A stretch of 63,996 nucleotides of DNA, counting the filler, from Basidiobolus ranarum (taxonomy: Eukaryota), in assembly GCA_040143965.1 (NCBI GenBank). It is 6 parts of 6 records of this genome, joined end to end, with 100 filler letters (N's around TTAATTAATTAA, not from the genome) between each part and the next. Parts side by side here need not be neighbours in the genome. Positions count along the whole stretch, not along the records: positions 32,214 to 42,839 come from JASJQH010000685.1; 5 more parts are not named here. One strand, given 5' to 3'. The notes below the pieces were generated by a model. It saw only the letters and a list, made by a program, of their open reading frames with translations. It did not search any database and was not told the origin of the DNA. Shown here piece after piece: positions 6,268 through 62,844 of this stretch. The position numbers and the translations under genes were made by a program. The stretch's first letter is position 1. Every line of letters starts with the position of its first letter.

Positions 6268-7755
6268 TTAGTACAATTTTTTAAAATTTATGAAAAGGTC
6301 TCGCGTTTCCATCAGTCCAGAACTAGGCATGGTCTTTAATGAATCAAAATGTATACTATTGTGTGGCAACGACCACGAGAATTTCCTTAACATCATGCTC
6401 AATACTACTCTTTGTTCAATGAGCGAGAAATTCATGCCAATACAACGGCGACTGCCCCCACCAAATGGCAACCAGGAAAAGAAATCGCGGTTCGTCTGTT
6501 CATCCAAGAATCTTTCTGGCATAAAGCGATATGGGTTGTCCCAATAATTGGAATTATGCTGCATAGAATAGATGTGGACATTTACTGGAGTTCCAACGGG
6601 GAGTATAAATTCTCCGAATTGAATCGGCTCACATGAACGACGGGGAATAACCTGTGATGCCGATGGGTTTAAGCGCATAGATTCTTTGATTACTGCAGTA
6701 ATATAGAGAAGTTCATTTTGCTGCTGAGCAAAGGTAGGACACAGGTTGCGTTCCTCATCGCCTAACACTCTGTTCGCTTCTTCCCTAGCTTTCTGCTGGG
6801 CTTCTGGGTGTATGCCCAGATAGTAAATAGCCGATGATAGAGCATTGGCTGTGGTATCATGACCGGCAATGAAGAAAGTGATTACATCATTTCGAATCTC
6901 TTCTGGTGTAAGCTTTTGTCCCTCTTCCTCACCGGCATGTATCATAAGGGTTACTAAATCAGCACCTCGGAGATCGACGGTTTTCTTTTCACTCGTTGCT
7001 TCTATTTTACTGTTAACAATACTCAGTATGAATTCGTTAAACTTTTCAAGCTCGGTTCGATATCCACGGCGACCAAAGAATGGAATATTTTCCAAGAATG
7101 GAAACATGTTGTAGAAGGGGTCATTGAATCCGCTCAGGATGGTGTTGTATAATTTCACAATATCACCTCTTTGATTCCCAATGGAGTTAAAATCATAGTC
7201 AAAAATGATTTTGCCCAGAGCATCCAAAGTCATGCGTTGCATAAACTCCTTAATCGGTATAGCTGATTCTGCTTTCTCAATCTCTACCATTAATCTGGAC
7301 ATCAACTCTCCAAATGCAGTGGTGGTCCAAGTACGATGAAACGCAGGGTTGGCCACACGACGATGTTTCTTCCACTCTTCGCCATTTGAAGAGGCAATAT
7401 TGACATTAGAGAGTTTAGCCCGTAACGTATTTGGCTGCTCTCTACCTAATATGATTTTTGGGAACGCATCAGCTTTCATCAAAATAGCCTTGGCATATTC
7501 TGGCTTAGACACCAACACCATCCATTTTCCAAAAGCGAATTGCCTAGCGAGTCCTTTTTCGTTTACAACGGGTACGATTAGTTTGTCAAAGCGCTCTGAA
7601 GCATCCATCGATGTTAACGTGGCGATCACACTTTTCCAGAAAGAGACGGCGGGGATCTGGCGTAGAGCTTGTGGACAATTGAGTATTTCATAAAGACACC
7701 ACGCTATAGCCAAGACAGGAGCTAGCACTATGATCATTATGGTCGGAGAGTCCAT
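6268..7755 (-). CDS. Cytochrome P450 monooxygenase (intronless, 495 aa)
   Basis: N-terminal membrane anchor, AGHDTT (I-helix), ESMR (ExxR), PERF and the heme motif FGGGSRRCIG. Confidence 0.97.
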   Translation of the reverse strand: MDSPTIMIIVLAPVLAIAWCLYEILNCPQALRQIPAVSFWKSVIATLTSMDASERFDKLIVPVVNEKGLARQFAFGKWMVLVSKPEYAKAILMKADAFPKIILGREQPNTLRAKLSNVNIASSNGEEWKKHRRVANPAFHRTWTTTAFGELMSRLMVEIEKAESAIPIKEFMQRMTLDALGKIIFDYDFNSIGNQRGDIVKLYNTILSGFNDPFYNMFPFLENIPFFGRRGYRTELEKFNEFILSIVNSKIEATSEKKTVDLRGADLVTLMIHAGEEEGQKLTPEEIRNDVITFFIAGHDTTANALSSAIYYLGIHPEAQQKAREEANRVLGDEERNLCPTFAQQQNELLYITAVIKESMRLNPSASQVIPRRSCEPIQFGEFILPVGTPVNVHIYSMQHNSNYWDNPYRFMPERFLDEQTNRDFFSWLPFGGGSRRCIGMNFSLIEQRVVLSMMLRKFSWSLPHNSIHFDSLKTMPSSGLMETRDLFINFKKLY

Positions 7756-8705
7756 TGTTGCTGGTTTAGGTATCAGTGAGAGTTGAATAGAAAGAATAAC
7801 TTATTTGTTACTGTTGCAACTGGTAACTTTTATAGTTGGTGAGTCTATAGTAGAACCATGAAATGGGATAATTCTCAAACTTTACCCGTCAACATTTGTC
7901 TCTTCAACTGACGTGGTATGCTATAAGCTCCGTGTATTAGCGGGTGAGATTAGCCGAATTAGCCGTAAAAACTAGCACACGATGCACTGTTAAAGTACCT
8001 CCGTTTTGGGCCCTACTTTCAATGTGGCAGAGTCAGCATCAAAGACTGCGAATCATGTCCAACGTACGAGTTGGAAATTGTAGGACATTTGACGTCAGAA
8101 ACCTCATCTAATCATTAGTGCATAGCAGTAGTGATCATCTGTGACAACCCCAAAAATGCCGCGGGGAAGCTGAGACAGCAATAACTCAGATTTCTATAAT
8201 AAACCCTAACCTTAAGTTACAAATTCATATACATCTTAGTCTAAACACGATGTTCTCCTGACACAGATTCCAAATTAAATTGCTGGGAATAAAGCGATGC
8301 TTCTGAATATTTAGAAAATGATGATCATCACGAAAAGTTCCTAAATTTGGTGGTGATTGATCTTCGGATGACCACTCAGATGAATCACGATGTAGTGCCC
8401 CATTATACTACTGGTGGGCATATATGAATAGAGATGTGAGATATTAGTGGTAAAGTCACAGGCATAATTTATCATTTCTTTTTACTGAATGACATTGATC
8501 CATCATGTTCAAATCAGATATCTTCCATTAGTTTAGCCAATTAAGCAGATATAGTAATTAGAATGTGGGTATAGATCTTCAGTTGGTGGCATAGTTAGTA
8601 ATAAATTACTAAACATAAGAATTTAGGTGAAAATGGCAAAGGTGAATACAGGGATAGAAGATATAGAACTGGTATTTGGGGTACACCAATAATGATGATA
8701 CAATT

Positions 8706-10644: not shown

Positions 10645-10744
10645 NNNNNNNNNNNNNNNNNNNNNNNNNNNNNNNNNNNNNNNNNNNNTTAATTAATTAA
10701 NNNNNNNNNNNNNNNNNNNNNNNNNNNNNNNNNNNNNNNNNNNN
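10645..10744. other. Artificial 100-nt contig spacer (N44-TTAATTAATTAA-N44)
   Basis: Identical spacers at 21383-21482, 32114-32213, 42840-42939 and 53559-53658. Confidence 0.98.
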
Positions 10745-12878: not shown

Positions 12879-14757
12879 ATGAATATTCAACATGATTCAA
12901 GCCCAGCAACTGTTCATCTTCGACAAGGCATATATCATGGGACATCTCACTCCACACACCGTACCTTTATGAATGTTCCGTATGCTCAGGTATTCAATTT
13001 GTTTCTATACTAAAGCTACACTCAGCTAATAAGAATGTTCAATAAATATAAAGCCACCAGTAGGTAACTTGAGATGGAAGAAGCCTCAAAAACTACACTC
13101 AAATCCCGAACAAACCAATGATGCAACCAAAGTTGGGTACGTACTACCCTCTGTTTTTTCAGCATGCAAACCGAGTTTGGTATAAGACTAACCCAATCCC
13201 CCATGCCAATAACAAAGACCATGCTGCCCTCAGCCAGCAACCCATATGGATTTTTTACCTGGGCTTCATAGTTCAGCGGAACACAACGAGTCTAATTGCT
13301 TAAACCTGAATATATGGACACCTCCTTTAGAGGAAAAGCCGGATAAGGGGTGGCCTGTAATGGTTCGTAGGTAGACATTAGGCATGACATGATAGTGTGT
13401 ACTAATATGGTTTCTCGCTAAAGGTCTGGATACATGGAGGTGGCTTCGTAGAAGGCATGAATTCATATCCGCTTTATGGTAAATATCAGACATTTGTTTA
13501 TGGTGTTCCTATGTGTGAGTGACCCTATGTTCAACATTTCTTTCTCTGTAGACGGTACCAATCTAACTAAAAAGCATCCAGTGATTGTGGTCTCCATCAA
13601 TTATCGTGTCAACATATTTGGCTTTCTGGGGAGTCAAGAGCTCATACAGGACTCGGAAGACGGAAGTTCTGGGAATTATGGGCTATTGGATCAAAGATTG
13701 GCCTTTGAATGGGTATACTTAAACAGTCATGAAAATCATAATATCAGTAGAAATTCCAATAGAGCCTAATAGATTACTTTAGGTTAAAGAAAATATTTCT
13801 CACTTTGGTGGCGACAAAACTCGTATATGCGCCTTTGGCGAATCAGCTGGCTCCGTCAGTATCGCCTACCAGCTTGTCATTTCAAGGGGGTTATTCCATC
13901 GAGCCATTCTGGAGTCGGGTGGCGCAGATACTTTATCTGCCGTTTCTATAGAAAAGCAGCAGATAGTTTTCGATGAAATATGTAGACACCTGGACATCAC
14001 TGAAGGGGATAGACTAGCAAAGCTTCGTGAAATATCTGCCGAAACGCTCGTTGATGCTCTAGATAAGGTATCGGTAGGAGCTGAATTCATATGGATGGGA
14101 ACCATAGATGGAGTGACCATCAAACAGAATCCAGGACTTCTTTATCAAGATCCCAAGAACATTGACCCATCTGTGAAAGAGATGATTATTGGAGAAACTA
14201 CTGATGAAGGGACTTTGTTTACAGATCTCATTCCTCTCAAAGAAACATTCAAAGCCACTCTCGAGTCAAAATTCTCCCCACACCAAACAGAAGTGATAAA
14301 GCGGCTCTATCCATGCGAAGAACCCGGCGAGTTATTAGCTACTATTGGTAAGATTTGCGGGGATCAGTTAGTTGCAGGGCCAGTTCGGGAAACTACTCGC
14401 GCGCTAGCCCATGGCTCTAATCCCGCACGGAAGGTTTACTCTTATCGGTTCAATGCACCCATGGAAAAAACTGCGGGCTTTAATCTTGGAGTTCATCACA
14501 TACAGGAGGTTTATTTTGTATTCAACCAGACAGATTATCTAAATGAGAAGGAGCAGAAAGTTTCGGAAAAGATATCCCAGTTCTGGGTCAATTTTGCCAC
14601 CAATGGAGTGCCAGATGACGAGTGGGAACCCTTCCTAACCAACCGTGAAACAAAGTTAGTGTTCGAACCAAATGGTATAATCAGGAACCAAATCGATGAT
14701 GACGAAGTTCGCGATAAACGGTTGCTTTTCTGGAAGTCTTTCCGTGAGCAACACTGA
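12879..14757 (+). CDS. Type B carboxylesterase/lipase, multi-exon
   Basis: NVPYAQ/PPVGNLRWKKPQ, CLNLNIWTP, WIHGGGF, SINYRVNIFGFL, GNYGLLDQRLAFEW, GESAG nucleophile elbow, GVHHIQE, FWVNFATNG. GT-AG introns. Confidence 0.93.
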
Positions 14758-21382: not shown

Positions 21383-21482
21383 NNNNNNNNNNNNNNNNNN
21401 NNNNNNNNNNNNNNNNNNNNNNNNNNTTAATTAATTAANNNNNNNNNNNNNNNNNNNNNNNNNNNNNNNNNNNNNNNNNNNN

Positions 21483-32002: not shown

Positions 32003-32213
32003 CAAGGTTTAGCTCATACCCAACACAAGTTTGTATCAATATCTCCATCAAAACCCACCATTGTATTAATGTTGCTGAATCAACATTCTTCCAGCTATCT
32101 GGCAGATACCCTGNNNNNNNNNNNNNNNNNNNNNNNNNNNNNNNNNNNNNNNNNNNNTTAATTAATTAANNNNNNNNNNNNNNNNNNNNNNNNNNNNNNN
32201 NNNNNNNNNNNNN

Positions 32214-34294: not shown

Positions 34295-35566
34295 TCAAGC
34301 CTTGGGTGGGTTGTTATAAGCAAGGATGTTGGGTGTCTCTCCTGGAAGTTTTTGCAACACATTCTTGGTACCTGCTTCAATAAGCTTGTTCTTGAGTTCC
34401 TTGGGTGTGATGGTAGAGTTAGATTCGAAGGAGAGCATGTAAGCAAGAAGTCCACAGATATGAGGACTGGCCATGGAGGTACCAGAGATGGTGTTGGTAG
34501 CTACGTTGGAACCGATCCAGGTGGAGGTAATATCTTTACCAGGGGCGAAAATATCAACGCACTTTCCATGGTTGGAGAACCAGGCTCTCTCATCATCAAT
34601 AGCACTAGCACCAACAGTTACCGCGCTTTCGGCTGAAGCAGGAGAGTAGCTGCAAGCATCACGGTTGTCGTTACCAGCAGCGACGGCAAAGTGAACACCG
34701 CTGGCGACAGCAGAGTTGACGGCCTCATTGAGAGCAATACTCTTTCCACCACCAAGACTCATATTAGCAACACTACCCTTGTGCTTCTTACCAGCACGTT
34801 GAGCCTCGAGAACAGCTTGTTGATGAGCAGTAATAACCCAAGTGACACCTTTGACAACATCAGCCATGGTACCAGAACCATTGGAACGAAGAACCTTGAC
34901 AGCAACAATTTTAGCTGACTTGGCAACACCATAACGTTTACCGGCAACAGTACCAGCGCAATGGGTACCATGACCGTTACCGTCCTTATCTTCATCATTG
35001 TCAGGAATGGTAGCACCCCAAGTAGCTCTACCTTCGAAATCTTCATGATCGACATTGACACCAGTGTCTACAATGTAGGCAGTCACGTCATTACCACCAT
35101 TATTGGCATAGAGATACTTGTTGTAAGTACCGAATGAGAGCGCTTCACGGTGAGAGATTCTGGATAGACCCCATGGAGCATTCTTCTGCAAGTCAGAGAT
35201 ATAGACCATGGAATCAGCTTCGATGTAGGCAACATCATCCATCTCTCTAATACGTTCTACCACTTCGGATTGGAAGCGCCCAGCATAACCTCTGAAACCA
35301 TCAGCATCGTAGATATGCTTAATCTGGTTGACTTCAACATCACTCTGAGAGTTTACGTTAGCAACTTGCAAGAATGAAGTCAACCAAGCTTGGTGATTGA
35401 GCAAAGAGTCACGGGAAGTATCCTTGAGAACAACAATGTAGGAGTTGGGAATGATTTCGGCATCCAAGGAACTAATAATGGGGGCACCAGGTTGCTCAAT
35501 ATAGAAAGCAAAAGTAGATGCAGTAGCATAAAGAGTAGCGAAAATGATGTTGGTCTTCCAGGTCAT
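34295..35566 (-). CDS. PRB1: Vacuolar subtilisin-like serine protease (proteinase B-like, S8A) with I9 propeptide
   Basis: Signal peptide, I9 prodomain, APWGLSRISHR, and catalytic motifs VDTG, HGTHCAG, SGTSMASPH. Confidence 0.93.
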   Translation of the reverse strand: MTWKTNIIFATLYATASTFAFYIEQPGAPIISSLDAEIIPNSYIVVLKDTSRDSLLNHQAWLTSFLQVANVNSQSDVEVNQIKHIYDADGFRGYAGRFQSEVVERIREMDDVAYIEADSMVYISDLQKNAPWGLSRISHREALSFGTYNKYLYANNGGNDVTAYIVDTGVNVDHEDFEGRATWGATIPDNDEDKDGNGHGTHCAGTVAGKRYGVAKSAKIVAVKVLRSNGSGTMADVVKGVTWVITAHQQAVLEAQRAGKKHKGSVANMSLGGGKSIALNEAVNSAVASGVHFAVAAGNDNRDACSYSPASAESAVTVGASAIDDERAWFSNHGKCVDIFAPGKDITSTWIGSNVATNTISGTSMASPHICGLLAYMLSFESNSTITPKELKNKLIEAGTKNVLQKLPGETPNILAYNNPPKA

Positions 35567-37862
35567 TTTGTTAGTTTACTACTGCGAAATTAATAAATAG
35601 AGGCAAGGGGACAAGAGGACGAAACCAAGAGAATATGGTAGAGAATGAGGTGTGATCTGAAAAATCCAGACAGAAATGCGATAGGGTTTTATAGTGGGCA
35701 TTTGGGGGGTAATTGGATGATGGAATTCCACCCCATCTAAGGTCTGTGACTTAGTCATGGGATTTGAATTAATTAGGAGTAGATAGGTATGGTTCCTAAA
35801 TAATAACTGCTGCGAAAACAAGAGTAAGACATTATGAGGATGTATATGATCGCGTGATTTAGGAATATTTAGAGCAAAGCGTAAGCGAGCTCCGAACATG
35901 AAGTACCAAGATAGAATTCACCATTCTCATTAGCTCTGCTATCTGAGGATTGTATTGTCACTGTAGCTTTCATTCAAATATACTGCAGCCAAGTAAAGGA
36001 GAGAATACGTAATTGTATATTCGGATTGCATTTGCTGACCATCCTGAAACCCAATCAGGAAAGACGAGGTGAAGGGAGCAAACCAAGTCACTTAAACCTC
36101 AGGACTCGAGTTACACGAGCCAACTATGAAGTTGATGTTTGCTTACAAGCCTAGCATCAAGTTGCTGAGTAGACGGCACTGTCACTATGGGACCAGCCGA
36201 AGTACTCGAAAGTGCCATAGCAAATACGGATATATCTCAGTGGCATTCTGTAAAACAATTGGTGACATTCAAATTTGTTCCAGGAGGTCTGCAACCCCTG
36301 ATCTATTTCTGTCAGATTATCAACCGAACTGTGGATACAATATATACAACTGTTCGACAATAGCCCCGTTCACAGTCCAAATGCCCATCCCAGTGTCTCA
36401 TTGTGCGAAACAACGAAGTAGGGGGAAGGGAGAGGATGCGATAGTGTCGTATTGTGGATATTACTGACATTAGAATACACAATGCTGGCTAGCTACAAGC
36501 GGAGCAGCCAGGGATTGGATGGTATTCGAATCTTGATACCCAAAGAAAGGTCACATTGATCTCAAACAGAGATATCAGCTGGCCAGCAGGCTACAACAAA
36601 CCCACACCCTTGCAAAGTCAGCGCATTCCTTATTACCATATTCAGATGGACTTCGTGTGGATCAGTATTGCGGGCGCTCCCTATTCATATTTCAATGCAT
36701 TAGGTAACCCATCAGAACACTGAATGGAGGCTTACAATGTGAAGCCACGAAACAGCGCTAATCCCGATAGATACATGTATAGTGTGTATACGTAATTCTC
36801 GCCATTTGTCTTTTAATTAGTGACGTTAGAGGCTGATCACCCTAGTTTTGGGTGGAAGAAAATCATCCAATTCCAGAAACCGCTATTTATTATGCATGAA
36901 TTTCCCATCTGCCACACGCAGTGTTCTCGATTGAGCAAAATTACCCCTTGATGGCCATATAAATCGGCATTACTGAGCAGAATTTGGCTTGGTCTTCGTT
37001 GTTACATTCTTAGAAAGAAGCTAGAGTCATTCTAACTTTCCTTAGTACATGATACTATATATATTTGATGTTACCATGATCTGTCATTTATCACAGACAT
37101 ACTACCGTGACACTACGTATCAGATTTGAGGCGAGATACACTCCCTTCAGAGTCAGATTTGTACACTTTTATGCTTGTCGTTAATTCAACGCTCTGAGCA
37201 ACTGGTATCATGACAGTTAGTTTCTCTGCAGTTTTGCTAAAGCCCTACTGTAGATTACCGTCGCACATTCGAGAAAAGGCCTATTTGATCTTGCAGAGAG
37301 ATCTTTCCAACAATCTGAAATTTATGCACCACTTGATATGCCTAATTTTGGCGATTTTAATCCGAATTGCGAAAATCGGAGTTTATTTCTCCAATCGGCA
37401 TGGAGACACCGCATTGTGCATAATACATATTATGGACTTCTTTGTGTCGGACTCTAATGAGTTAATCTAGAAAAGTGGAACGCATAAATCTCGCTTTTAC
37501 GAATAAATTGTATGCAATCGTACCTCTTACAGAGTGTTAACAACAAAGCGTCTGAACGGTTCAATAGAAGGTGTACGATAACGCAAAAAACAAGTAGCAA
37601 TACCTGTTCTTATTGGATGTTGCCAAGTCAGCAATAAACCAAGGCATAACTCGGAACATGCAGAAATTTTACTAATTGCTTATTGGCATTGTCAGTCTGT
37701 ACTATGCCGCCGTATTTGTAAACCTTCATGCTGATTTCCATAAAGTGACTATGACATCCGCCATTCGTATGACGCAAGAACTGTAACTGGATGCTTGTGA
37801 AATACAAAGTTGGATCTGATTATCTGACTCTATTGAAAGTATTAATAGGATTTGTTGTTTGA

Positions 37863-38196
37863 GCTTCCGAGCTGATTTACAAAAATCTCAAAAAGCGTGA
37901 AAAACAAGGGGAACTATTACTACTGGACCTTGATGAGTTCAGGACATTGTCCGTAGGTATCTTTGCGAATTTTATGTATCTTTAAGCATCTTAATTTTTC
38001 TTTTAATTAGGTTTGCTGTGAATGCCATCAAAGAAATTTAAGATACCATAGAGTCCAAGAACGTACCTTTTACAATATATTCTGGAATCGAGACGTGCTT
38101 GCAGCTAAAAATATGATGTTCATTTCAACCCAACTTTAGTCCGGTAATGAACGACCCGATATCTTCTCTCGTCCAACAGGACAACGCGCCATATAG
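37863..38196 (+). pseudogene. Fanzor (eukaryotic TnpB-like RuvC nuclease) 3' fragment with an intron
   Basis: Translation: ASELIYKNLKKREKQGELLLLDLDEFRTLS|intron 37953-38010|VCCECHQRNL...NIFWNRDVLAAKNMMFISTQL*SGNERPDIFSRP. This gives RuvC-II (DE), CxxC and RuvC-III (WNRD..AAKN). In-frame TAG at 38137. Confidence 0.85.
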
Positions 38197-38385
38197 AACG
38201 TGGTTGTTCCTCGCTCTAGCGAGCGAATTTAAAGATTCTTACAGGTAAAGAACATCACTTTGGCCATTGATATCTTGTCTAAACTAATATTTTTTTGTCT
38301 CAATTTTATTTTCATTTCGTCTAAAAATTAATTTTGATTCGTCTAAAAAAAGTACTGACACGTCTAATTTTAGAGTAAAATCCTG
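38197..38385 (+). mobile_element. Putative right end of the Fanzor-carrying transposon, including the candidate omegaRNA region
   Basis: Hairpin CTCGC-TCTA-GCGAG (38210-38223). GTCTAA-like repeats at 38277, 38297, 38319, 38341 and 38362. Terminus ...AAAATCCTG followed by TA. Confidence 0.6.
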
Positions 38386-40022
38386 TAATAGGATTTGTGA
38401 CAGTGAAAGCATGTCACGTACATGTATCTAATAATAAATTATAGTTTGTTATTAGATGTTCTACAATTAACAAATTAAGCACACTTCTAATACCAGTATT
38501 GTCACCTGCATACTGAACGCTCTTTACGAATGACGTCTGTGCTGCCATTTTTGTTAAAGCGAGAGAAAGATCGAAGACAACACTCACAATTCCTTTGGTC
38601 ATGCAGCGCTGATGGTACGCGAGTGAACGGTGAACTCACAAGATGTGAAATAAATTTGGTTATTTTTCTGGTGTATTCATGCTGAATTTCATAAAAATAT
38701 ACACTTCATTGAGCAGATTTTCTCCAGTTTTTGTTCGCTTAACATGTGAGCTAGATGTTCTTTCTTGCTATACAGTTTGGAAACTTATTTGCCGGTGCTG
38801 AGGTTGAACATGTTCAAAATGAAACAACAGCAGGGATTCCTAAGCTCGAATTTTAAAGCTAGGTCATACCACCTGATGATGGTTTCCGTAGAAGTGCTAT
38901 ACTTTCTAGAACGGAGTAGGGGATATCTATCTAAGCAACCTCATTTCTAGCTCATGCTGGGGTAGCGGCTCCGAAGTCACTTCCAGAAATATAGGGAATT
39001 CGGTGGTTCTCCTTCTGAGAAGATCTAATTATTTTAGACGTTTGAAGCTTAACCAGAAAAGGTTGTGATTTCTTGGAGCAAGAGGAAAGGAATTGAGGGG
39101 CATTTACAACCCATATATACCTGAATAAAGAAATCGGAGCTATCTTGGCACGTAAGAATAACTTTATTGATCCACTGGTGTTGGTTCTTGGAATAAATCA
39201 ATAGGTCCGATTTACAGACAAACAAAGAGGTCAATGACTGGCATTGAAGTCGGGTGTGCTACCGCTATCAGACTTTCCAAACTTGGTAACTTCACCTCCA
39301 GACCAACTTTAAAAGCCTTGATCTGAGGCGCAATTTCTGAGTCAGACTCAATCGCGACTAGAATGGGTTCTCTCGAAGCCTACAAGATCTCAATATCTAG
39401 GACTGATTTAAGTGGCTTTCTGTGATGTTAGCCTCACTTCTATCCCATATTGTGCTATTCTCCACTCAAAGCACTAGAAAGCTTGTAGGATATCTCAGAG
39501 GTGGGCTGATTTCCCCAATTTCAGATGATCAATTTAAAGTCTAGTGAGTTTTTAGTGATTCAAAGCAGATAATGGATCCAGAACCACGATAGAAGCCACA
39601 TTAAACTTCACTCACAGCATAGTTGGTGGATTTTGCCTTGATTTGTTTGCCAGATTCTATATCATTAGCACGGCAAAGTCTCTTCATTGAGTGAAATTCT
39701 CCAGATGTCAAGCTTTAATAAGTTTTATGAGCTCAATTGCAGATGATTATTTCGCATTTGACAGATCACCGTCCAATGGAAGAGAGGTTGTACTCAGATA
39801 TTGAGGTGGTGGGGATTTATCTATAAGCTTACTACTGCCATGGACGTAGTAACAAACAAGATAATATCCATGTTATACATTACAGAAAACATGGTTTTAT
39901 AACTTGAAAAGAGAGAATACATTGAGGTAATAGGGTGAAAAGGTGCAAAGTAAAGCAATTCTGAGACTCATATATGAACGTGGATGTTTGTTAAACATGG
40001 TTTGCTTTGAAAATGAGATTAT

Positions 40023-40991
<969 letters not shown>

Positions 40992-42839: not shown

Positions 42840-42939
42840 NNNNNNNNNNNNNNNNNNNNNNNNNNNNNNNNNNNNNNNNNNNNTTAATTAATTAANNNNN
42901 NNNNNNNNNNNNNNNNNNNNNNNNNNNNNNNNNNNNNNN

Positions 42940-46379: not shown

Positions 46380-47642
46380 CTAATTGAATTTACAGCTATG
46401 TATTTTCGTGTGCCGGCGCAGATTGCTCACAACAGAGAAATGGCGCCCACACCCTTCATGCGGACACTTGAAAGGCTTTTCACCAGTGTGCGAGTACATG
46501 TGAGTATTTAACGAACTGGGACGACTGAACCCCTTCTGGCAAATGGTGCAATGATACTTCTTGGCCGATGCAGATATCATTCTGGAGTTGAAAGTTGTCA
46601 TCATCGATGTAGGAGGATTTGCTCTTTTCTTTCGTGAACAGGCGCCATTTAATTTCGAATAACTGACTTGATATGGCATGTTTGGTGACACTCTATCAGG
46701 ATGCATGTATAGTTGCTCTGCTGCTTGTAAATCAAATGCTTCGAAATAGTCTCTCTCACTTGCATTCATCATATACTGCTGATCACAGCTACTTTTTTCA
46801 AACATGTGCAGGGGATACTCGATCAACTGACTTATTCCATCAATATCGGCAAGCGATGGAGAGCATATATTATCCTTTTCATGGTTCAAGTAGGTTGCCT
46901 CGTAGAGTGTAGCGATTTCAGAGGGACACACAAGATCAGTGAAGTTCGAAACACCAGGTGATAGTATGTATTCCTGATCTTCAGACCAAGCTGGCGTTGT
47001 CGATGGTTTGGCATACTCTTCGTTACTGCGCCGCGCAAAATTGTCCGACTCTGTCGAAAATGTACTTTGCACTGGTGAGTATTTTGGTTGGAACGATCTC
47101 TGTAGTAATGTCTCATTGTAGTGATAAGGCTCAGGTGAGCTCCTACTCGATGACGATGAATCGAATGAGCCACCACTTTCTGAGTTTAAATCTTTATTGC
47201 CGTCAAACTGTACTTGGCCCCAAAGAATGTCCTGCTGTTCATTCTTCCTTAGGGCTTGGTTGGTCCTAACGAAATGAAGGAATTCTCCTTCGCCAAGATG
47301 AATGGAGGGTGATGGACATGCCATGATTTCTCCCTCCTCCACTTTAACTTTAATATTTTCATATAAAGAGTCAGGAACACTATTAGAGGAAGAGGTAATC
47401 TCATATGGGGTAGTTGGCCAAAGTGATGAGATTGGTCTGCACTCCTGTTCCGATTCTTTTGTAAAAGTACCACTGTATGAAACTGAGTCTTCAACCCTTG
47501 TTGGTCGCCGTTGGCCAAAGCCTGACGAAATATGGTCCATTGCCATTAACTGCTCCAGAGAAAGATCACCATTTTGAGGTGCGCAATCTTTCTGGCTTGG
47601 ATAAGGGAAGCAATAGGGAGAATATAATGTTGCGTAGGTCAT
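46380..47642 (-). CDS. C2H2 zinc-finger transcription factor, FlbC-like
   Basis: C-terminal tandem fingers CTICQKGFSRPSSLNTHMYSHTGEKPFKCPHEGCGRHFSVVSNLRRHTKIH; low-complexity N-terminal region. Confidence 0.9.
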   Translation of the reverse strand: MTYATLYSPYCFPYPSQKDCAPQNGDLSLEQLMAMDHISSGFGQRRPTRVEDSVSYSGTFTKESEQECRPISSLWPTTPYEITSSSNSVPDSLYENIKVKVEEGEIMACPSPSIHLGEGEFLHFVRTNQALRKNEQQDILWGQVQFDGNKDLNSESGGSFDSSSSSRSSPEPYHYNETLLQRSFQPKYSPVQSTFSTESDNFARRSNEEYAKPSTTPAWSEDQEYILSPGVSNFTDLVCPSEIATLYEATYLNHEKDNICSPSLADIDGISQLIEYPLHMFEKSSCDQQYMMNASERDYFEAFDLQAAEQLYMHPDRVSPNMPYQVSYSKLNGACSRKKRANPPTSMMTTFNSRMISASAKKYHCTICQKGFSRPSSLNTHMYSHTGEKPFKCPHEGCGRHFSVVSNLRRHTKIHSCKFN

Positions 47643-50600
47643 ATTAGACTTCAGAAGGGATATTGAAGGCTCGTTATAAAGGACCCAAGTAAAATAACTT
47701 TACTGTCAAGGTGATGCTGGTAGGACGATTCTACGAAGGAAATAGAGTCAGGTATAGAGCAGATTGGATATGGACAAGGACTAAATGACTGAATGGCCTT
47801 CAGGATAATTATACGAGTATGAATCAACGTTTGGATTGTTCAGGAAGTGGTCCGAATTTAAAGCTTTGAGATTTCCACCATAGTATCCACCAATCCAATA
47901 GGTTCATTGGGTGATTGACAATATGGACAAACTAAGGTCATCCTTTCTGTGAAACCTAAACCAGCTACTGAATTGTTAACACTCTTTTGGGCAACTATCA
48001 GCAATTCTGATGATCTTCTTCAGGATAATGTAAATGGAATAATGCGTTCAATTAGCTTTAGTTTGAGATACGAATATACTTGCAAATATATTTTCATGTT
48101 TTAATGTAGGGGCATGTTAATATTGAAGCTCAGTAAGGGGTAGGGGAGAGCGGTATTTAGGGTGCTTAGCTAAGTGGAGGGAAGTGGAGCTAGGCGATAG
48201 TAAGTGGGGAGAGCCCTCCGATGAATTCCAGAATGCAACGCAGATATCATTCATACTATATGCTTAAATCTTGAGATGTTTCCTTGCATCACTATATTGA
48301 CTAGGCATCCACAGGTACACTTCCCTACGAGCCCAAGTCTTGTGAGAGTATTTTGCCACCATAGCCGAAACTGTTACAAAGACGGGGATGCTCGGGCTAG
48401 TACAAGTCCAACATTCAAGTAGTACTTGTCTTCTAGTGTGCAGAAATGGACAGTACATGATTCAATCTGATCTTTAGCCCCCCTACCAATCATAGAGTCG
48501 GTGGCTGTAATGCACTCAATTATCTTCACCAAATACATCACTTCTACATTACCATTCTTTCTTAATAACCGCCATCCCAGCTTGTACTATGGACATATCA
48601 CAGTTAGGTAATGCTATCTCTCCCATGGAATCATATGCGTTCGAGAGGCGTGGCTTAGCTTAGCAACAGCCGGTCACAGAACATTGTGTAGGCCATCTGG
48701 GTCAAGAATTACCTTCATTGATGTCTCCCGGAGTAGTCCTATGTGGTCTACCACTGTAGCATCAACATACTCTGTCAAAAACAGATGATAACCAATCGCT
48801 TCCGACCAGGGCCAGTATATTATCCAACGTACTAGAGAAACGGTGAAAATAAGTCTATATTTGATGCTAGCCCTGTTTGCCATCTTAACCACCAGTTATG
48901 TTTGTTTGTGCTGCATAGAACTTGGTATGGGATCAATATAGCATTCCCCTTGATTTAATCTATTTCCTTATACTAATCTGCTCGTAATAAGAACACTCAT
49001 CCAATCCTTATCCTGAATATCCATTTGAAACCTAGGGTTTTGGCTTGTTGTATGAGCGTGATGTCGTTCCAGAGTGTCGGGATATCTTGCCGCAGTCAGA
49101 ATATGGATTGCTAGATTATGACCGACGTAAACTACTACTACAAACGAACTTCTACGCTCGTTGAAAACCCGCTTCGCCGCAATCACATCCTTTCTCCAAC
49201 CGATTCTAAATGTTGGCTATTCCCGCTGCTCTTACCAATTTAGACGACGGGAGTTGCTACTTGGCGAATGGGTATGCCGCCCGAAGGCAGTAATTACCAA
49301 AATCGATTTATTAGCCATGGGTAGAATCAACCATGCATAAGGTAGATCCAATGCACTCTGTAGCATTATACTTTTCAACGGCTGATCCATTTCTGCGATT
49401 CCACCTAAATTCGGGGGACATCGCTCAGTAAAGCGAACTCTCCTGAAATCGGAGGCCTCTATGAGATCTACAGATGCATCAGTCATTACTTTGGCAGCAG
49501 GAGACGCTATTTTGATTGACAATGAGTGCATTGATTGGCACTGAGCATCACCTCATCTGTCGGAATGGCTGAGAAACAAGTATTTCATGCAAAACTAGAC
49601 ATGACAGCTTCGATTAGTTATGACTCGACTTCAACAAGTATGGAAAAATAGAATAATCAAAAAACCCACCATCTTTTAGAAGGGGACGCAGTACTCATAC
49701 AATCCAAGTTACACGTGCTACATTAGTATCGATTAAGTATTCATTCAAGGCTCGATGAAGGTCGAGTATGGATCAGAAATCCCACTTTCTAGTCCCAAAA
49801 TGCAAGCCCGCAAGAGGAAAGCAAGTTAGTCTATGCCCAGAGAGGTGGGTTAGTTTTTGCTGACAGAGAATACAGAGTGCTAAACAAAACTGCCGCAGCT
49901 AGTTAAGTCTGCAGCTTTACCCAGCTGGGATGGGTTGGTCATGACTGTAGCAAGCCATCCAAGATTATTCAGTTGATACAAGACCACGCCTAGACTGCTC
50001 TATATCTTATGTAACATATAGGTGCACAATGGGAAATTTATTAAGTATACTGGGACCCAGGCAAGTTAGCGAATCTAACCTGGTATCTCTATCCTATGGC
50101 TCAGTATTTCACCTACACACTCAATATCAAGTCAATCGTATTTGAACTAATCACTCTTGGCAAGGAATGGCAAATCGGACTCAATCGAATGGTCCTGTAC
50201 CATTTCTTGATAAATGGAACTTCAGAATCTATGCATTTACACAGGATAAATCACTGAAGTCTTTCAAAAATTTGCAGCAAGTATTCAACCTATATCAGGG
50301 GAACATCTGCTATGTGCTACTTGGCGCTTTACTTCGCAAGCCAGGCTAATCTTCGCCATCAGAGAATCCAAATGTTCACACCGCTCTGTGAGCTGGCGAG
50401 TGTGCATCTAAGCGAGCCCTAGCTTTGCTAACTACCGCTCATGAAATCAGTGCTTCATCCTCCTCGAATAAACACCACTGTGGTTAAGTTAATTGCTGAG
50501 GTGGCAGTCATTCCAAAATTCTTGACTGCTTTCGTACAAATCAGGATTCCGGATCTGAAGCAACCACCGTTGATCCCGAATATATCTAGGAAATGAGTAA

Positions 50601-53558: not shown

Positions 53559-53658
53559 NNNNNNNNNNNNNNNNNNNNNNNNNNNNNNNNNNNNNNNNNN
53601 NNTTAATTAATTAANNNNNNNNNNNNNNNNNNNNNNNNNNNNNNNNNNNNNNNNNNNN

Positions 53659-55973: not shown

Positions 55974-56266
55974 GTACACAATTTAATGCTCGTATTGTGT
56001 ATGTATCGAGAATTGCAAAAATGATTGTCCTTATACTTTCCTACCTATTATCAATTGCCAGGTCTGTTTAAAAGCCAAATATCTGCTCAAGATATATATA
56101 TCATTTTCAAATCATCCTTTTCTGTCTACACTTTAAAGCTTATTGCGCAGCCCCTATTTTGTAGAACCCCTCATACTAAACCTTTTCCAATATTGATAAA
56201 GGTAATACGTTGCACGTTGCAATAAAGTCTATCAATTTCTGAACAGTCTCAATTTGAAGTAAAGCC

Positions 56267-59200
56267 ATGTTTCTCGAACCAGCTGGAAAGAATGTGATTG
56301 TGGCCTCTTTTTTTCTTCCAAATACGGTTTCTTTCAATAGTGAAGATAAAGTTATTGCTACCGTTGAGAGTACCGCTAAAACCCAACCTACTATCCCTAA
56401 AATAGCCATAGACAACTTGCGAAATGGTCCTCAGGCTAGTGTGATTGAACGTATGATACAAAAGAAAAAAGGACTTTCTGACTCTAGACCTGAAAGAGAT
56501 TTCAGTATACCTCGTAGTAGGAATGCTTCTCCCACGAGATCACCCGCAAGCACACCACCTGTTTCCGCAAAAGAGAATAAAATATCACCCAAAAGACAGC
56601 AAAGAAGAAAATCTGTCTCAGCCAGTTCACCAGATTCGCCTTGGACAGTAACACCTTGTTCAATAGGAAATATCGGCTTACACAACGCGGTGAACTCGAT
56701 TGCCGACAAATTAGGTACCAGAACCTGGATTGGTACATTATCTACATCTACCGAGGATCTTAGTGAGAGGAATCGCAATGCTATAAAGGAGGAATTGAAA
56801 GATAAACATGATTGTCTTCCAGTCTTCCTTTCTGACGCTGAGATGGACGGTCACTATAATAAGTTTTGTAAACAGGTAAACTCTACAAAGATTGTTCATG
56901 AGTGATTGGGTCAGATTTTTACTTAGTATTCTTAGGTATTGTGGCCTATGTTTCATTACATTCTCCCCGAATACCCGCAGTCTCTCGGATATGAAGATGA
57001 AGCGTGGCAGCATTGTCTTTCTGTGAATAGAAAATTCGCAGACGCTGTTGTTGAAGTGTACCAACCTGGAGATATAAGTAAGTAAAGAGCTATTATCTTA
57101 TATATTATCTTTGCTAGTATTTCATGAAATATACTAACTGCCGTGAAATAAGTTTGGGTTAATGATTATCATCTGATGCTTCTACCTGCAATGATACGCG
57201 ACAGAATCCCAGAAGCGAAGGTGGGCTTCTTCCTTCATATCCCATTCCCTAGCTCGGAAATCTTCAGATGTCTTCATGGTTAGATCTCTTTCTGAAACCT
57301 GACAATAAGTATATAGATTTGTTAAACTTCATTGAGCAGTTCGTCGACAGATTCTGGAAGGCGTGTTAGGTGCTGATTTGGTTGGATTTCAGGTAGAATT
57401 CGTACATTAATCATTTGTAGTATGTAATGGTACACTAATGGTAGCATATGTTTAGACTTATTCGTTCGCACGTCATTTCCTCGAGAATTGTAGTAGAGTC
57501 TTATCATATGAATCCTCACCTAAAGGAATTCAATTCGATGATAGATTCGTTTCTGTTGGAATATTTCCCATTGGTATGACCGTTTGCACAGCAGTTTGGT
57601 AAATAAGTCACTAATAACTCGACACTTTCTAGGTATCGATGCTTCGGCTCTTAACGAGAAAAGGTATGTATTACGATTTGCTGGTAGTATTGGCTGAGAT
57701 TGACCATCATCTTTAGAAATATTCCTGATGTGACGGAAATCGCAACATCTTTACGAGAGAAATATGGTGACAAGAAGCTAGTGATCGGTCGTGACAAGCT
57801 AGATTATGTCAAAGGCGTGAGACAAAAGATGTTGGCCTTCGAGATGTTCTTAAATATGTACCCGGATTGGAGAGGAAATGTACGTATCTCGCATGTTATT
57901 ACTAGTGACGATTACTTAATCGATTGACATAAACTACAGGTCATCCTCTTGCAGATATCACTCCCTACTACTGAACACAATGAACTACAAGGTCAGGTAT
58001 CTGACATTGCTTCTCGAATCAATGCCAAATATGGCAGTTTGTCGTATCAACCTGTTATATATTTGCACCAAGAAATTGATTTTAGTCAATACTTGGCTCT
58101 ATTAACGGTTGCCGATTCCTTCATGATTACTTCGCTAAGAGATGGCATGAATCTTACGTCTCATGAGTATGTAATGTGCCAAGAAGAAAAGTGTAGTCCT
58201 TTGATTATCAGTGAGTTTGCTGGTACTTATGGTAGCTTTGGTGCTGCTGCGATTCGTGTCAATCCATGGGATACTCGCCAACTTGCACAGGCTATTAACG
58301 AATCGTTATCAATGCCTGATGAAGAGAGAGCCTATAGATGGAAGGAATTGCATGATCATGTAATTACCAATTCGGCTCAGTTCTGGGCTGAAAGCTTTAT
58401 AGACGAGCTTGATAAAGCTCATGGAGAACGTCGCAGCTCAGTTCAGATACCTCATATTACACCGTTCGTCGCTAAACCAGCTTACCAAAGTAGTCAAAAG
58501 CGACTTTTCTTTCTCGACTATGATGGCACACTAGCTCCTTATGTCCGAGCTCATTCCAATCCTGCGTCATTTGATAGAGTCAAAAAGCTGCTCGAGAGTT
58601 TGACCGATGATCCAAAGAACACCGTCTATATAATGAGTGGTAGAACTACTTCTTCACTTGACGAAGTTCTTGGCAGTATTCCAAACTTAGGCTTCAGGTA
58701 GGTCTTTTCATCTGTTGTTGTGTCGCTAGATACATAAACTAAGTAAACATTTAAATTTCTAGTGCAGAGAATGGTTGTTTCGTCAAGCACCCTGGTTCCG
58801 ATTGGGAACGTCTCTTATCCGACAACGATTTTAGCTGGCAAGGGAAAGTTAGAGAGGTGGGACTTTGCTGTGGTAAACCCTTAAAGATTACATTACTTAT
58901 TGGAATTTGGGTTATTCTAGATATTTGAATACTACACAGAGCGAACTCCAGGTTGGATCAGATTTTACCAGCATAATATATAACAACAGGCACATTTCTA
59001 ATCACATTCACATTTAATACAGGGTCTTACATTGAATCGAAAGAAGTGGCTCTTGTATGGGACTATCGTTTAGCAGATAATCCGTCATATGGGTATGCCG
59101 ACCTTTATTTATCAGTTTGAACTGTAGATTTACAATCGTTTTTGTTAGCGCTTGGCAAGCCGCTGAATGTCAGAATCATATTCAAGATGCACTTGGAACC

Positions 59201-61342: not shown

Positions 61343-62844
<1,502 letters not shown>

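What the first reader, a model, noticed from the sequence alone, without database searches (positions are those of the whole stretch)
37863..38196. Hidden intron-containing Fanzor (RNA-guided TnpB-like nuclease) fragment
Seen: this is absent from the ORF track, but removing a 58-nt GTAGGT...TTAG intron (37953-38010) gives KKREKQGELLLLDLDEFRTLS-VCCECH...IFWNRDVLAAKNMMFISTQL*SGNERPDIFSRP. Established: DE (RuvC-II), CxxC and WNRD..AA.N (RuvC-III) in this order are the TnpB/Fanzor C-terminal signature, and Fanzors are eukaryotic RNA-guided DNA endonucleases. Inference: this copy is dead (N-terminus and second CxxC missing; TAG at 38137 is probably a mutated TGG), but intact relatives elsewhere in the genome could define a new Fanzor family with its own TAM.
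Basis: partly seen in the sequence, partly recalled or inferred. Interest (0 to 1): 0.85.

Follow-up and report, generated by a model that had tools for sequence, protein, structure and literature searches.

The report
Dead Fanzor1 nuclease gene fragment

Summary
Frames 37863-37952 and 38011-38196 are separated by a 58-nt GTAGGT...TTAG stretch.

It is not chance. Exon 2 alone finds three Rhizopus microsporus PF07282 proteins at 71-74% identity (E 1.6e-12 to 1.3e-9 against 5.8 billion sequences). tblastn of one of them hits both exons without a gap at the junction (E 1e-30).

A profile of full-length relatives finds the solved Fanzor1 structures best: SpuFz1 7.8e-26, PpFz1 9.6e-21, GtFz1 2.2e-11. 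The spliced peptide matches only positions 349-441 of a 456-position profile (71.7 bits).

The copy is dead:
- Nothing in the window matches profile positions 1-348, which hold RuvC-I.
- A TGA lies directly upstream.
- A residue that is Ser in all 17 aligned relatives is Leu.
- A 24-nt deletion removes the second CxxC.
- TAG sits where the closer relatives have Trp.

Named relatives are Mucorales fungi, where Fanzor1 was described in 2013. No genome or RNA data were available, so intact copies in this organism remain untested.

Verdict: real feature, correct reading, known kind, low interest.

The parts
37842..37862 (+). Upstream edge of the homology (LIGFVV* against LRGRRVG of relatives), ending in an in-frame TGA at 37860-37862. 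Nothing further upstream resembles the family.
   Evidence: tblastn HSPs start at 37842-37866. The profile scan finds no piece for profile positions 1-348.
37863..37952 (+). Relic exon 1 (30 codons, frame 3): ASELIYKNLKKREKQGELLLLDLDEFRTLS. It holds the family-invariant Glu (alternative RuvC-II glutamate, codon 37935-37937). A residue that is Ser in all relatives is Leu here (codon 37947-37949). There is no ATG.
   Evidence: 69-78% identity to P0001, P0002 and P0156. 20.5 bits alone against the profile without P0002. The column is Ser in 17 of 17 aligned relatives.
37953..38010 (+). 58-nt phase-0 spliceosomal-type intron, GTAGGT...TTAG, containing a stop codon.
   Evidence: Length and ends. 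Relatives align without a gap across the junction. The spliced peptide scores 81.6 bits against 44.6 + 22.8 for the exons apart. Of 83 relatives carrying the motif, 9 continue 'VS' plus unrelated residues at exactly this codon boundary, as a read-through of GTAAGT would give; one of them (P0017, VSIFTNFYL) resembles the window's own read-through VGIFANFMYL. Four introns of about 61-107 nt in the neighbouring Rab6-like gene show that the host has short introns (read by eye).
38011..38196 (+). Relic exon 2 (frame 1). It holds the first CxxC of the TNB zinc finger (38014-38025) and a 24-nt deletion at about 38074-38080 that removes the second CxxC. The RuvC-III motif WNRDVLAAKNM follows (Asp codon 38092-38094). 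There is an in-frame TAG at 38137-38139 and the family's normal C-terminus, with a stop at 38194-38196.
   Evidence: tblastn 76-78% identity with an 8-residue gap. The second CxxC is present in 16 of 17 aligned relatives. Asp is present in 17 of 17. W stands at the TAG column in 9 of 15.

Best explanation
A decayed, 5'-truncated remnant (about 355 bp, 37842-38196, + strand) of a Fanzor1 gene, the passenger gene of a DNA transposon that once inserted in this 4-kb intergenic region of a mucoralean fungus. The intact ancestor would have been a protein of roughly 600-800 aa. By homology to SpuFz1, PpFz1 and GtFz1, such a protein binds an omega-RNA transcribed from the transposon's 3' end and cuts matching double-stranded DNA next to a TAM. 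Cutting uses a RuvC site built from a RuvC-I Asp, the relocated RuvC-II Glu just before the zinc finger, and the RuvC-III Asp of the RD motif. The relic covers only the last fifth of that protein: the helix before the Glu, the Glu loop, half of the TNB zinc finger, the RuvC-III helix and the C-terminal tail. It keeps the ancestral short intron. It cannot make a nuclease. It lacks RuvC-I and all RNA- and DNA-binding domains, and it has no start codon. It carries two in-frame stops, has lost two zinc ligands, and has Leu where all relatives have Ser. Shown here: the homology, the extent of the relic, the position of the intron, and the defects. Inferred: the ancestor's RNA-guided nuclease activity (from solved and tested relatives), the transposon origin, and the absence of expression.
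For: - Exon 2 alone: 3 of 3 candidates are Rhizopus microsporus PF07282 proteins, 71-74% identity, E 1.6e-12 to 1.3e-9 for a 5.8-billion-sequence database.
- tblastn of P0001 and P0156 against the window gives E 1e-30 and 8e-32. Each gives two HSPs, in frames +3 and +1, meeting at 37952/38011.
- P0001 and P0002 pass Pfam's cut-off for PF07282 (29.7 and 28.6 against 26.3 bits). P0003 falls just short at 25.7.
- phmmer of P0002 against 1.84 billion representatives gives 605 hits at E<=1e-3. All 10 long relatives tested (453-1180 aa) hit PF07282, 9 of them above the cut-off.
- The profile of 18 relatives against PDB gives SpuFz1 8gkh 7.8e-26, PpFz1 9cf0 9.6e-21 and GtFz1 9cer 2.2e-11. Fanzor2-like L79, TnpB, Cas12g, Cas12f and Cas12m follow at 1e-6 to 1e-2.
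- P0173 (789 aa, 44% identical to P0002) hits SpuFz1 on its own at 5e-9.
- The spliced peptide, with X at the TAG, scores 71.7 bits against the profile built without P0002, on positions 349-441 of 456. No other piece of the window matches.
- tblastn of 152 family proteins against the window gives 56 HSPs, 55 of them inside 37800-38200.
- The defects are read directly from the alignment.
- Flanking genes are ordinary eukaryotic ones: an S8 subtilase at 34298-35575 (-) and a Ras-family GTPase at 40026-40406 (-).
- Literature passages: Fanzor1 families in Rhizopus oryzae (4) and Mucor circinelloides (10), and the shared D...[TS][TS]..C4...RD motif (PMC3627910). The relocated Glu and introns in Fanzor genes (PMC10530073). 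The position of the catalytic Glu before the TNB domain (PMC11423790).
Against: - Neither exon alone hits Pfam (0 families at E<=10) or any PDB sequence. The assignment therefore rests on intermediate sequences.
- No terminal inverted repeats, target-site duplication or omega-RNA could be identified, so the transposon context is inferred.
- Several R. microsporus relatives of only 129-166 aa are annotated as intact proteins. A short expressed product in that lineage cannot be excluded, although this copy has stops.
Confidence: 0.93

Rival explanations
1. The two exons are the 3' end of a still functional Fanzor1 gene whose upstream exons were missed because they are diverged, far away or lost in the assembly.
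For: Fanzor genes carry introns (PMC10530073 passages). N-terminal halves of Fanzors are highly variable (PMC3627910 passages).
Against: The profile covering the conserved central part of the family (positions 1-348, which also align to SpuFz1) finds nothing in any frame of the 64-kb window. 152 family proteins give no upstream HSP. A TGA directly precedes the homology. The exons themselves carry a TAG, lack two zinc ligands and have Leu at a position that is Ser in all relatives. There is no N run within 4 kb: the nearest are 32114-32213 and 42840-42939. Only about 1.9 kb separates the relic from the neighbouring subtilase gene.
Confidence: 0.02
2. A short domesticated or otherwise expressed product: a TNB/RuvC-III tail protein or a regulatory RNA kept by the host after the transposon decayed.
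For: R. microsporus has several annotated 129-166-aa proteins covering just this part, with open frames (P0001, P0156). The region downstream (38375-38460) folds into three hairpins, with z = -2.4 for 38100-38480.
Against: This copy has no ATG in exon 1, a TGA just upstream, an internal TAG and a broken zinc finger. Many database relatives are plainly truncated gene models that stop at the intron, so short annotated proteins are weak evidence of function. A z-score of -2.4 is modest, and no comparison sequences were available.
Confidence: 0.04
3. A chance resemblance of two short frames to the TnpB motif string.
For: Short motifs (DE, CxxC, RD..AA.N) are easy to find by eye. Pfam and PDB searches of the single exons found nothing.
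Against: 75-78% identity over about 100 residues to natural proteins, with E 1e-30 or better. The C-terminal tail and the stop position are conserved as well.
Confidence: 0.01

Closest known systems
Rhizopus microsporus 'Cas12f1-like TNB domain-containing' hypothetical proteins (P0001 = ORE06340.1; P0002 = CEG81642.1; P0156 = CEG76993.1)
   Same: 70-78% identical over both exons, with the same C-terminal tail and stop (...FSRPTGQRA.) and the same residues either side of the splice junction.
   Different: They keep the second CxxC (ILICNDCN), the Trp and the Ser. They extend further N-terminally (PLIIFGDG... and beyond), and P0002/P0155 reach into the central region. They are themselves only 65-356 aa, which suggests fragments or partial gene models.
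Fanzor1 RNA-guided nucleases with solved structures: Spizellomyces punctatus SpuFz1 (8gkh), Parasitella parasitica PpFz1 (9cf0), Guillardia theta GtFz1 (9cer)
   Same: The family profile aligns to them over the central region and the C-terminal RuvC-II Glu / TNB / RuvC-III / tail, with E 7.8e-26 to 2.2e-11. The motif string is the same: DE[YF]xTS-CxxC...CxxC-WNRD...GRP..F.
   Different: Sequence similarity is only at profile level: P0022 alone finds no PDB chain, and P0173 alone finds only the last 40 residues of SpuFz1. The window copy holds only about 20% of the protein and is broken.
Full-length Mucorales Fanzor1 copies (Mucor lusitanicus 759 aa P0162/P0166/P0168; Mucor flavus 690 aa P0015; unnamed 789 aa P0173)
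   Same: Same family and same order of motifs. They show what an intact member looks like. P0162, P0166 and P0168 are three separate loci of one genome grouped in one 90%-identity cluster, which suggests recent mobility.
   Different: 31-44% identity to the Rhizopus-type subfamily of the relic.
Bacterial TnpB (IS200/IS605, IS607) and Cas12f
   Same: They share the TNB zinc ribbon and the RuvC-III region (PF07282). PDB hits at 1e-6 to 1e-2 cover profile positions of about 284-411.
   Different: They are prokaryotic, have no introns, and most carry the RuvC-II Glu at the canonical place (PMC10530073 passages). They match the profile much more weakly than Fanzor1 does.

Membership tests
Fanzor1 (eukaryotic TnpB homologues) | Significant sequence homology to Fanzor1 proteins, better than to Fanzor2, TnpB or Cas12 | tested here: met
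   The relic is 70-78% identical to P0001, P0002 and P0156. A profile of their long relatives hits three solved Fz1 proteins at 7.8e-26 to 2.2e-11, against 3e-6 or weaker for Fanzor2-like L79, TnpB and Cas12. The spliced peptide scores 71.7 bits against that profile built without P0002.
Fanzor1 (eukaryotic TnpB homologues) | Encoded in a eukaryotic (or eukaryotic-virus) genome | tested here: met
   The neighbours are a subtilase, a Ras/Rab GTPase with four short GT..AG introns, a P450, a forkhead protein and others. Named relatives are all Mucorales fungi except one Klebsiella-labelled 535-nt contig.
Fanzor1 (eukaryotic TnpB homologues) | RuvC-I aspartate and the WED/REC/central region | tested here: not met
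   No piece of the window matches profile positions 1-348. No upstream tblastn HSP was found. This part is missing because the copy is truncated.
Fanzor1 (eukaryotic TnpB homologues) | Relocated RuvC-II glutamate in DE[YF]xTS before the zinc finger | tested here: met
   Glu at 37935-37937 aligns with the invariant Glu column (17 of 17 relatives; invariant E689 in A1). The following Ser (17 of 17) is Leu in the relic.
Fanzor1 (eukaryotic TnpB homologues) | C4 zinc finger (TNB, PF07282): CxxC...CxxC | tested here: not met
   The first CxxC is present (38014-38025). The second is removed by an 8-codon deletion; it is present in 16 of 17 relatives. The exons alone do not reach any Pfam hit.
Fanzor1 (eukaryotic TnpB homologues) | RuvC-III RD motif | tested here: met
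   WNRDVLAAKNM, with the Asp codon at 38092-38094. Asp is present in 17 of 17 relatives.
Fanzor1 (eukaryotic TnpB homologues) | Intact open reading frame | tested here: not met
   TGA at 37860, TAG at 38137, and no ATG in exon 1.
Fanzor1 (eukaryotic TnpB homologues) | Adjacent omega-RNA and transposon ends (TIRs, TSD) | tested here: inconclusive
   No Rfam match in 35500-40500. No convincing TIRs. There are hairpins downstream (z = -2.4) and a 13-nt direct repeat that arises by chance in 79 of 2000 simulations. No related fungal DNA could be fetched for comparison.
Fanzor1 (eukaryotic TnpB homologues) | RNA-guided DNA cleavage | not testable with these tools
   This is a biochemical property. 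The relic lacks the parts needed for it.

The most novel reading that the evidence does not exclude
The genome this window comes from (not held here) may still carry intact, mobile copies of this Rhizopus-type Fanzor1 subfamily. In the public protein sets searched, that subfamily appears only as fragments of 65-356 aa. Its nearest relative of 449 aa or more is only 44% identical. An intact copy would therefore give a Fanzor1 subclade that has not been characterised biochemically, with its own omega-RNA and TAM, and with a conserved intron in front of the zinc finger.
Probability: 0.15. Interest if true: 0.35.

Novelty: already known. Interest (0 to 1): 0.12.

Why it matters
It matters little in itself. 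Fanzor1 elements and their decayed copies are known in Mucorales: four families in Rhizopus oryzae and ten in Mucor circinelloides were listed in 2013 (PMC3627910 passages). Fanzor biochemistry and structures are published.

There are two practical points.

First, the relic is an example of a coding remnant that ORF lists and single-exon Pfam scans miss. It was found only by splicing out a short intron.

Second, many database relatives seem to be gene models cut short at this same intron. Annotation of this family in Mucorales is therefore poor, and a search for intact copies should use intron-aware methods.

If the host genome holds intact members of this subfamily, they would be candidates for compact eukaryotic genome editors. 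This window gives no evidence for that.

Tried and rejected
- Pfam on exon 1, exon 2 and the exon 1 read-through frame: 0 families at E<=10.
- PDB sequence search with each exon: 0 hits at E<=10.
- PDB search with the single full-length relative P0022: 0 hits at E<=0.01. Only the profile and P0173 made the link.
- Metagenome contigs with P0002: 99 pattern matches, none confirmed. I did not use the second scan that was allowed, because the only likely finds are relatives of 35-41% identity on contigs of about 3 kb, too distant for comparing flanks.
- Earlier findings of this scan: nothing by place or by sequence.
- Rfam on 35500-40500 at E<=1: nothing.
- Repeat searches for TIRs or TSDs around the relic: only short, weak matches.
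- blastn of 35900-40000 against the whole window: no second copy.
- Pfam on 20 flanking small frames in 35915-39376: nothing at E<=0.01; the single hit listed under the 0.1 limit of the call was Arteri_GP4 at E 0.094, far below its cut-off, taken as noise.
- One weak tblastn match at 46706-46894 (P0083, E 0.006) lies opposite a C2H2 zinc-finger gene. The profile did not reproduce it, so I rejected it as noise.
It was scored only in the script box against a profile built from session proteins.
- No structure prediction was run. It would not change the verdict.
- The supplementary PDFs of PMC3627910, which hold the Fanzor1 element sequences of Rhizopus and Mucor, could not be read. I therefore could not say which named family (ROr-1 to ROr-4) the relic belongs to.

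Full report
**1. The observation**

The ORF listing from stop to stop gives a 40-codon frame at 37863-37985 (frame 3) and a 42-codon frame at 38011-38139 (frame 1). The 58 nt at 37953-38010 begin GTAGGT and end TTAG. Taking them out joins the frames and gives ASELIYKNLKKREKQGELLLLDLDEFRTLS|VCCECHQRNLRYHRVQERTFYNIFWNRDVLAAKNMMFISTQL*SGNERPDIFSRPTGQRAI*.

**2. Is it more than chance?**

Taken alone, neither exon hits Pfam or any PDB sequence.

Exon 2 alone, searched against longer proteins, found three candidates. All three are Rhizopus microsporus proteins carrying PF07282, at 71-74% identity and E 1.6e-12 to 1.3e-9 for a database of 5.8 billion sequences.

tblastn of these proteins back on the window gives two HSPs, in frames +3 and +1, that meet exactly at 37952/38011 (P0001 E 1e-30; P0156 E 8e-32). 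The relatives read ...EFRASS|VCFECH... or ...EFKTSS|VCFECH... without a gap where the window has the 58-nt insert.

P0001 and P0002 pass Pfam's own cut-off for PF07282 (Cas12f1-like TNB domain). P0003 falls just short.

**3. Which family?**

phmmer of P0002 against 1.84 billion cluster representatives gave 605 proteins at E<=1e-3, 218 at 1e-10 and 13 at 1e-30.

All 10 long relatives that I tested (453-1180 aa) hit PF07282, 9 of them above the cut-off.

I built a profile of 18 relatives (A1) and searched it against PDB sequences. The best matches were:
- Spizellomyces punctatus Fanzor1 (8gkh), E 7.8e-26
- Parasitella parasitica Fanzor1 (9cf0), E 9.6e-21
- Guillardia theta Fanzor1 (9cer), E 2.2e-11

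All three align over both the central region and the C-terminal RuvC/TNB part. The mimivirus TnpB-like L79, TnpB, Cas12g, Cas12f and Cas12m follow at 3e-6 or weaker, and only over the C-terminal part.

A single full-length relative, P0022, finds no PDB chain by phmmer. P0173 finds SpuFz1 at 5e-9 over its last 40 residues. The family is therefore Fanzor1, but distant from the members whose structures are solved.

By the names given in the sources, relatives come from these Mucorales fungi:
- Rhizopus microsporus, R. delemar and R. stolonifer
- Mucor circinelloides, M. lusitanicus and M. flavus
- Gilbertella persicaria
- Mycotypha africana
- Benjaminiella poitrasii

One member is labelled Klebsiella pneumoniae, on a 535-nt contig.

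**4. How much of the gene is here?**

In the script box I scored the spliced peptide, with X at the TAG, against the profile. It gives 81.6 bits with A1 and 71.7 bits with the profile rebuilt without the close relative P0002. The match covers positions 349-441 of 456.

A scan of all 3371 stop-free pieces (12 aa or more) of the six frames of the window found only the two exons, at E 3.4e-6 and 4.8e-5; the next best was 0.31.

tblastn with 152 family proteins gave 56 HSPs. Of these, 55 lie inside 37800-38200, and one weak one (E 0.006) lies at 46706-46894, which the profile does not support.

Homology starts at about 37842, and an in-frame TGA lies at 37860-37862. The window therefore holds only the last fifth of a Fanzor1 gene. 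There is no assembly gap nearby: the nearest N runs are at 32114-32213 and 42840-42939.

**5. State of the remnant (alignment, 17 relatives)**

Kept:
- the Glu of DE[YF]xTS (17 of 17 relatives; window codon 37935-37937)
- the first CxxC
- the Asp of WNRD (17 of 17; codon 38092-38094)
- the C-terminal tail and the natural stop

Lost:
- The residue after the Thr is Ser in 17 of 17 relatives and Leu here.
- An 8-codon deletion, between the repeated 'NI' of FYNILICNDCNIFWNRD, removes the second CxxC. That CxxC is present in 16 of 17 relatives.
- The TAG at 38137 stands where 9 of the 15 relatives with a residue there have Trp. These include all the closer ones.

Exon 1 has no ATG.

Passages of PMC10530073 say Fanzors replace the canonical RuvC-II Glu by Pro or Gly and use a conserved Glu about 45 residues downstream. 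Passages of PMC11423790 place the catalytic Glu on the loop between the last RuvC strand and the TNB domain. PMC3627910 notes an extra strongly conserved Glu (E536) in Fanzor1.

**6. The intron**

No RNA data could be used, so splicing is inferred. The grounds are:
- GT...AG ends.
- A length that restores the frame.
- An internal stop codon.
- A gapless fit of relatives across the junction.
- The neighbouring Rab6-like gene has four introns of about 61, 72, 99 and 107 nt with GTAAGT-like starts (read by eye, with the frames).
- The pattern of truncated gene models among relatives.

On that last point: among the 174 session proteins, 83 carry the DE[YF]xTS-type motif. Of these, 51 run on into CxxC. 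Nine continue 'VS' followed by unrelated residues, which is what reading through a GTAAGT donor at this codon boundary would give. The other 23 end or diverge there in other ways. One of the nine, P0017, reads VSIFTNFYL where the window's own read-through gives VGIFANFMYL. This suggests that the intron itself is shared within the subfamily. It is indirect evidence, because I could not see the relatives' DNA.

**7. Surroundings**

The relic lies in a 4-kb intergenic stretch. On one side is an S8 subtilase gene (34298-35575, - strand; possibly continuing to 35917). On the other is a Ras-family (Rab6-like) GTPase gene (last exon 40026-40406, - strand).

Twenty small flanking frames have no Pfam match at E<=0.01; one hit at E 0.094, far below its cut-off, I take as noise. 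Rfam finds nothing. No other copy of this DNA is in the window.

I found no terminal inverted repeats. An exact 13-nt direct repeat (TAATAGGATTTGT at 37843 and 38386) brackets the relic, but such a repeat arises in 79 of 2000 composition-matched simulations of the 1.6-kb region. The 3' flank folds into three hairpins at about 38375-38460; the region 38100-38480 has z = -2.4. Without related DNA, neither feature can be tied to a transposon end or an omega-RNA.

**8. Explanation**

This is a decayed, 5'-truncated copy of a Fanzor1 gene left by a DNA transposon (confidence 0.93). By homology to the solved and tested Fanzor1 proteins, the ancestor was an omega-RNA-guided double-stranded-DNA endonuclease. 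This copy cannot encode one.

Rivals:
- A live gene with missed upstream exons (0.02).
- A short domesticated product or RNA (0.04).
- Chance (0.01).

**9. Novelty**

Fanzor1 in Rhizopus, Mucor and Phycomyces was catalogued in 2013 (PMC3627910, Table 1 passage). Fanzor activity, introns, the rearranged active site and structures are all published (passages seen).

The relic is 70-78% identical to annotated proteins in the databases, so this is a known kind.

One open point: the Rhizopus-type subfamily appears in the searched collections only as pieces of 65-356 aa. Its closest relative of 449 aa or more is 44% identical (P0173, 789 aa; 2 hits among 758 candidates in a word-based search, which is weak evidence of absence).

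Whether the host genome keeps an intact copy could not be tested, because no genome is held and the metagenome scan found nothing.

**10. Verdict**

Observation confirmed, interpretation supported, feature ordinary. Interest 0.12.

Noticed in passing
window 37843-37855 and 38386-38398: An exact 13-nt direct repeat (TAATAGGATTTGT) brackets the relic. The upstream copy sits at the very edge of the protein homology. The downstream copy forms half of a hairpin 190 nt after the stop. A repeat of this length appears by chance in 79 of 2000 simulated 1.6-kb regions, so it may mean nothing.
   Followed up: partly
window 38375-38460: Three consecutive hairpins lie just downstream of the relic, including a 15-bp palindrome at 38426-38457. 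The region 38100-38480 folds with z = -2.4 against shuffles. This could be a remnant of the element's omega-RNA or right end, or just AT-rich intergenic DNA. No comparison sequences were available.
   Followed up: partly
session proteins P0008, P0017, P0061, P0066, P0071, P0074, P0104, P0123, P0149 and others: Many database relatives look like gene models cut short at, or reading through, the same intron in front of the zinc finger. Of 83 proteins with the motif, 9 continue 'VS' plus unrelated residues, and several end within a few residues of the junction. This suggests Fanzor1 genes of Mucorales are systematically mis-annotated.
   Followed up: partly
protein P0158 (cluster of P0006): A 170-aa member of this fungal Fanzor1 family is labelled Klebsiella pneumoniae, on a 535-nt contig. 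It is most likely fungal contamination of a bacterial assembly.
   Followed up: no
window 10645-10744, 21383-21482, 32114-32213, 42840-42939, 53559-53658: Five pairs of 44-N runs lie at regular intervals of about 10.7 kb. They look like masked stretches rather than assembly gaps. None is near the finding.
   Followed up: no
window 40026-40940 (-): A Rab6-like small GTPase gene with four short introns of about 107, 61, 72 and 99 nt, starting GTAAGT, GTAATT, GTAATA and GTACGT. I used it as a yardstick for host introns (exon borders read by eye).
   Followed up: partly
window 6271-7800 (-), 13783-14754 (+), 34298-35575 (-), 46383-47699 (-), 56258-58698 (+), 62191-62841 (+): Ordinary fungal genes: a cytochrome P450, a carboxylesterase, an S8 subtilase with an I9 propeptide, a C2H2 zinc-finger protein, a trehalose-phosphate synthase/phosphatase and a forkhead protein.
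   Followed up: no
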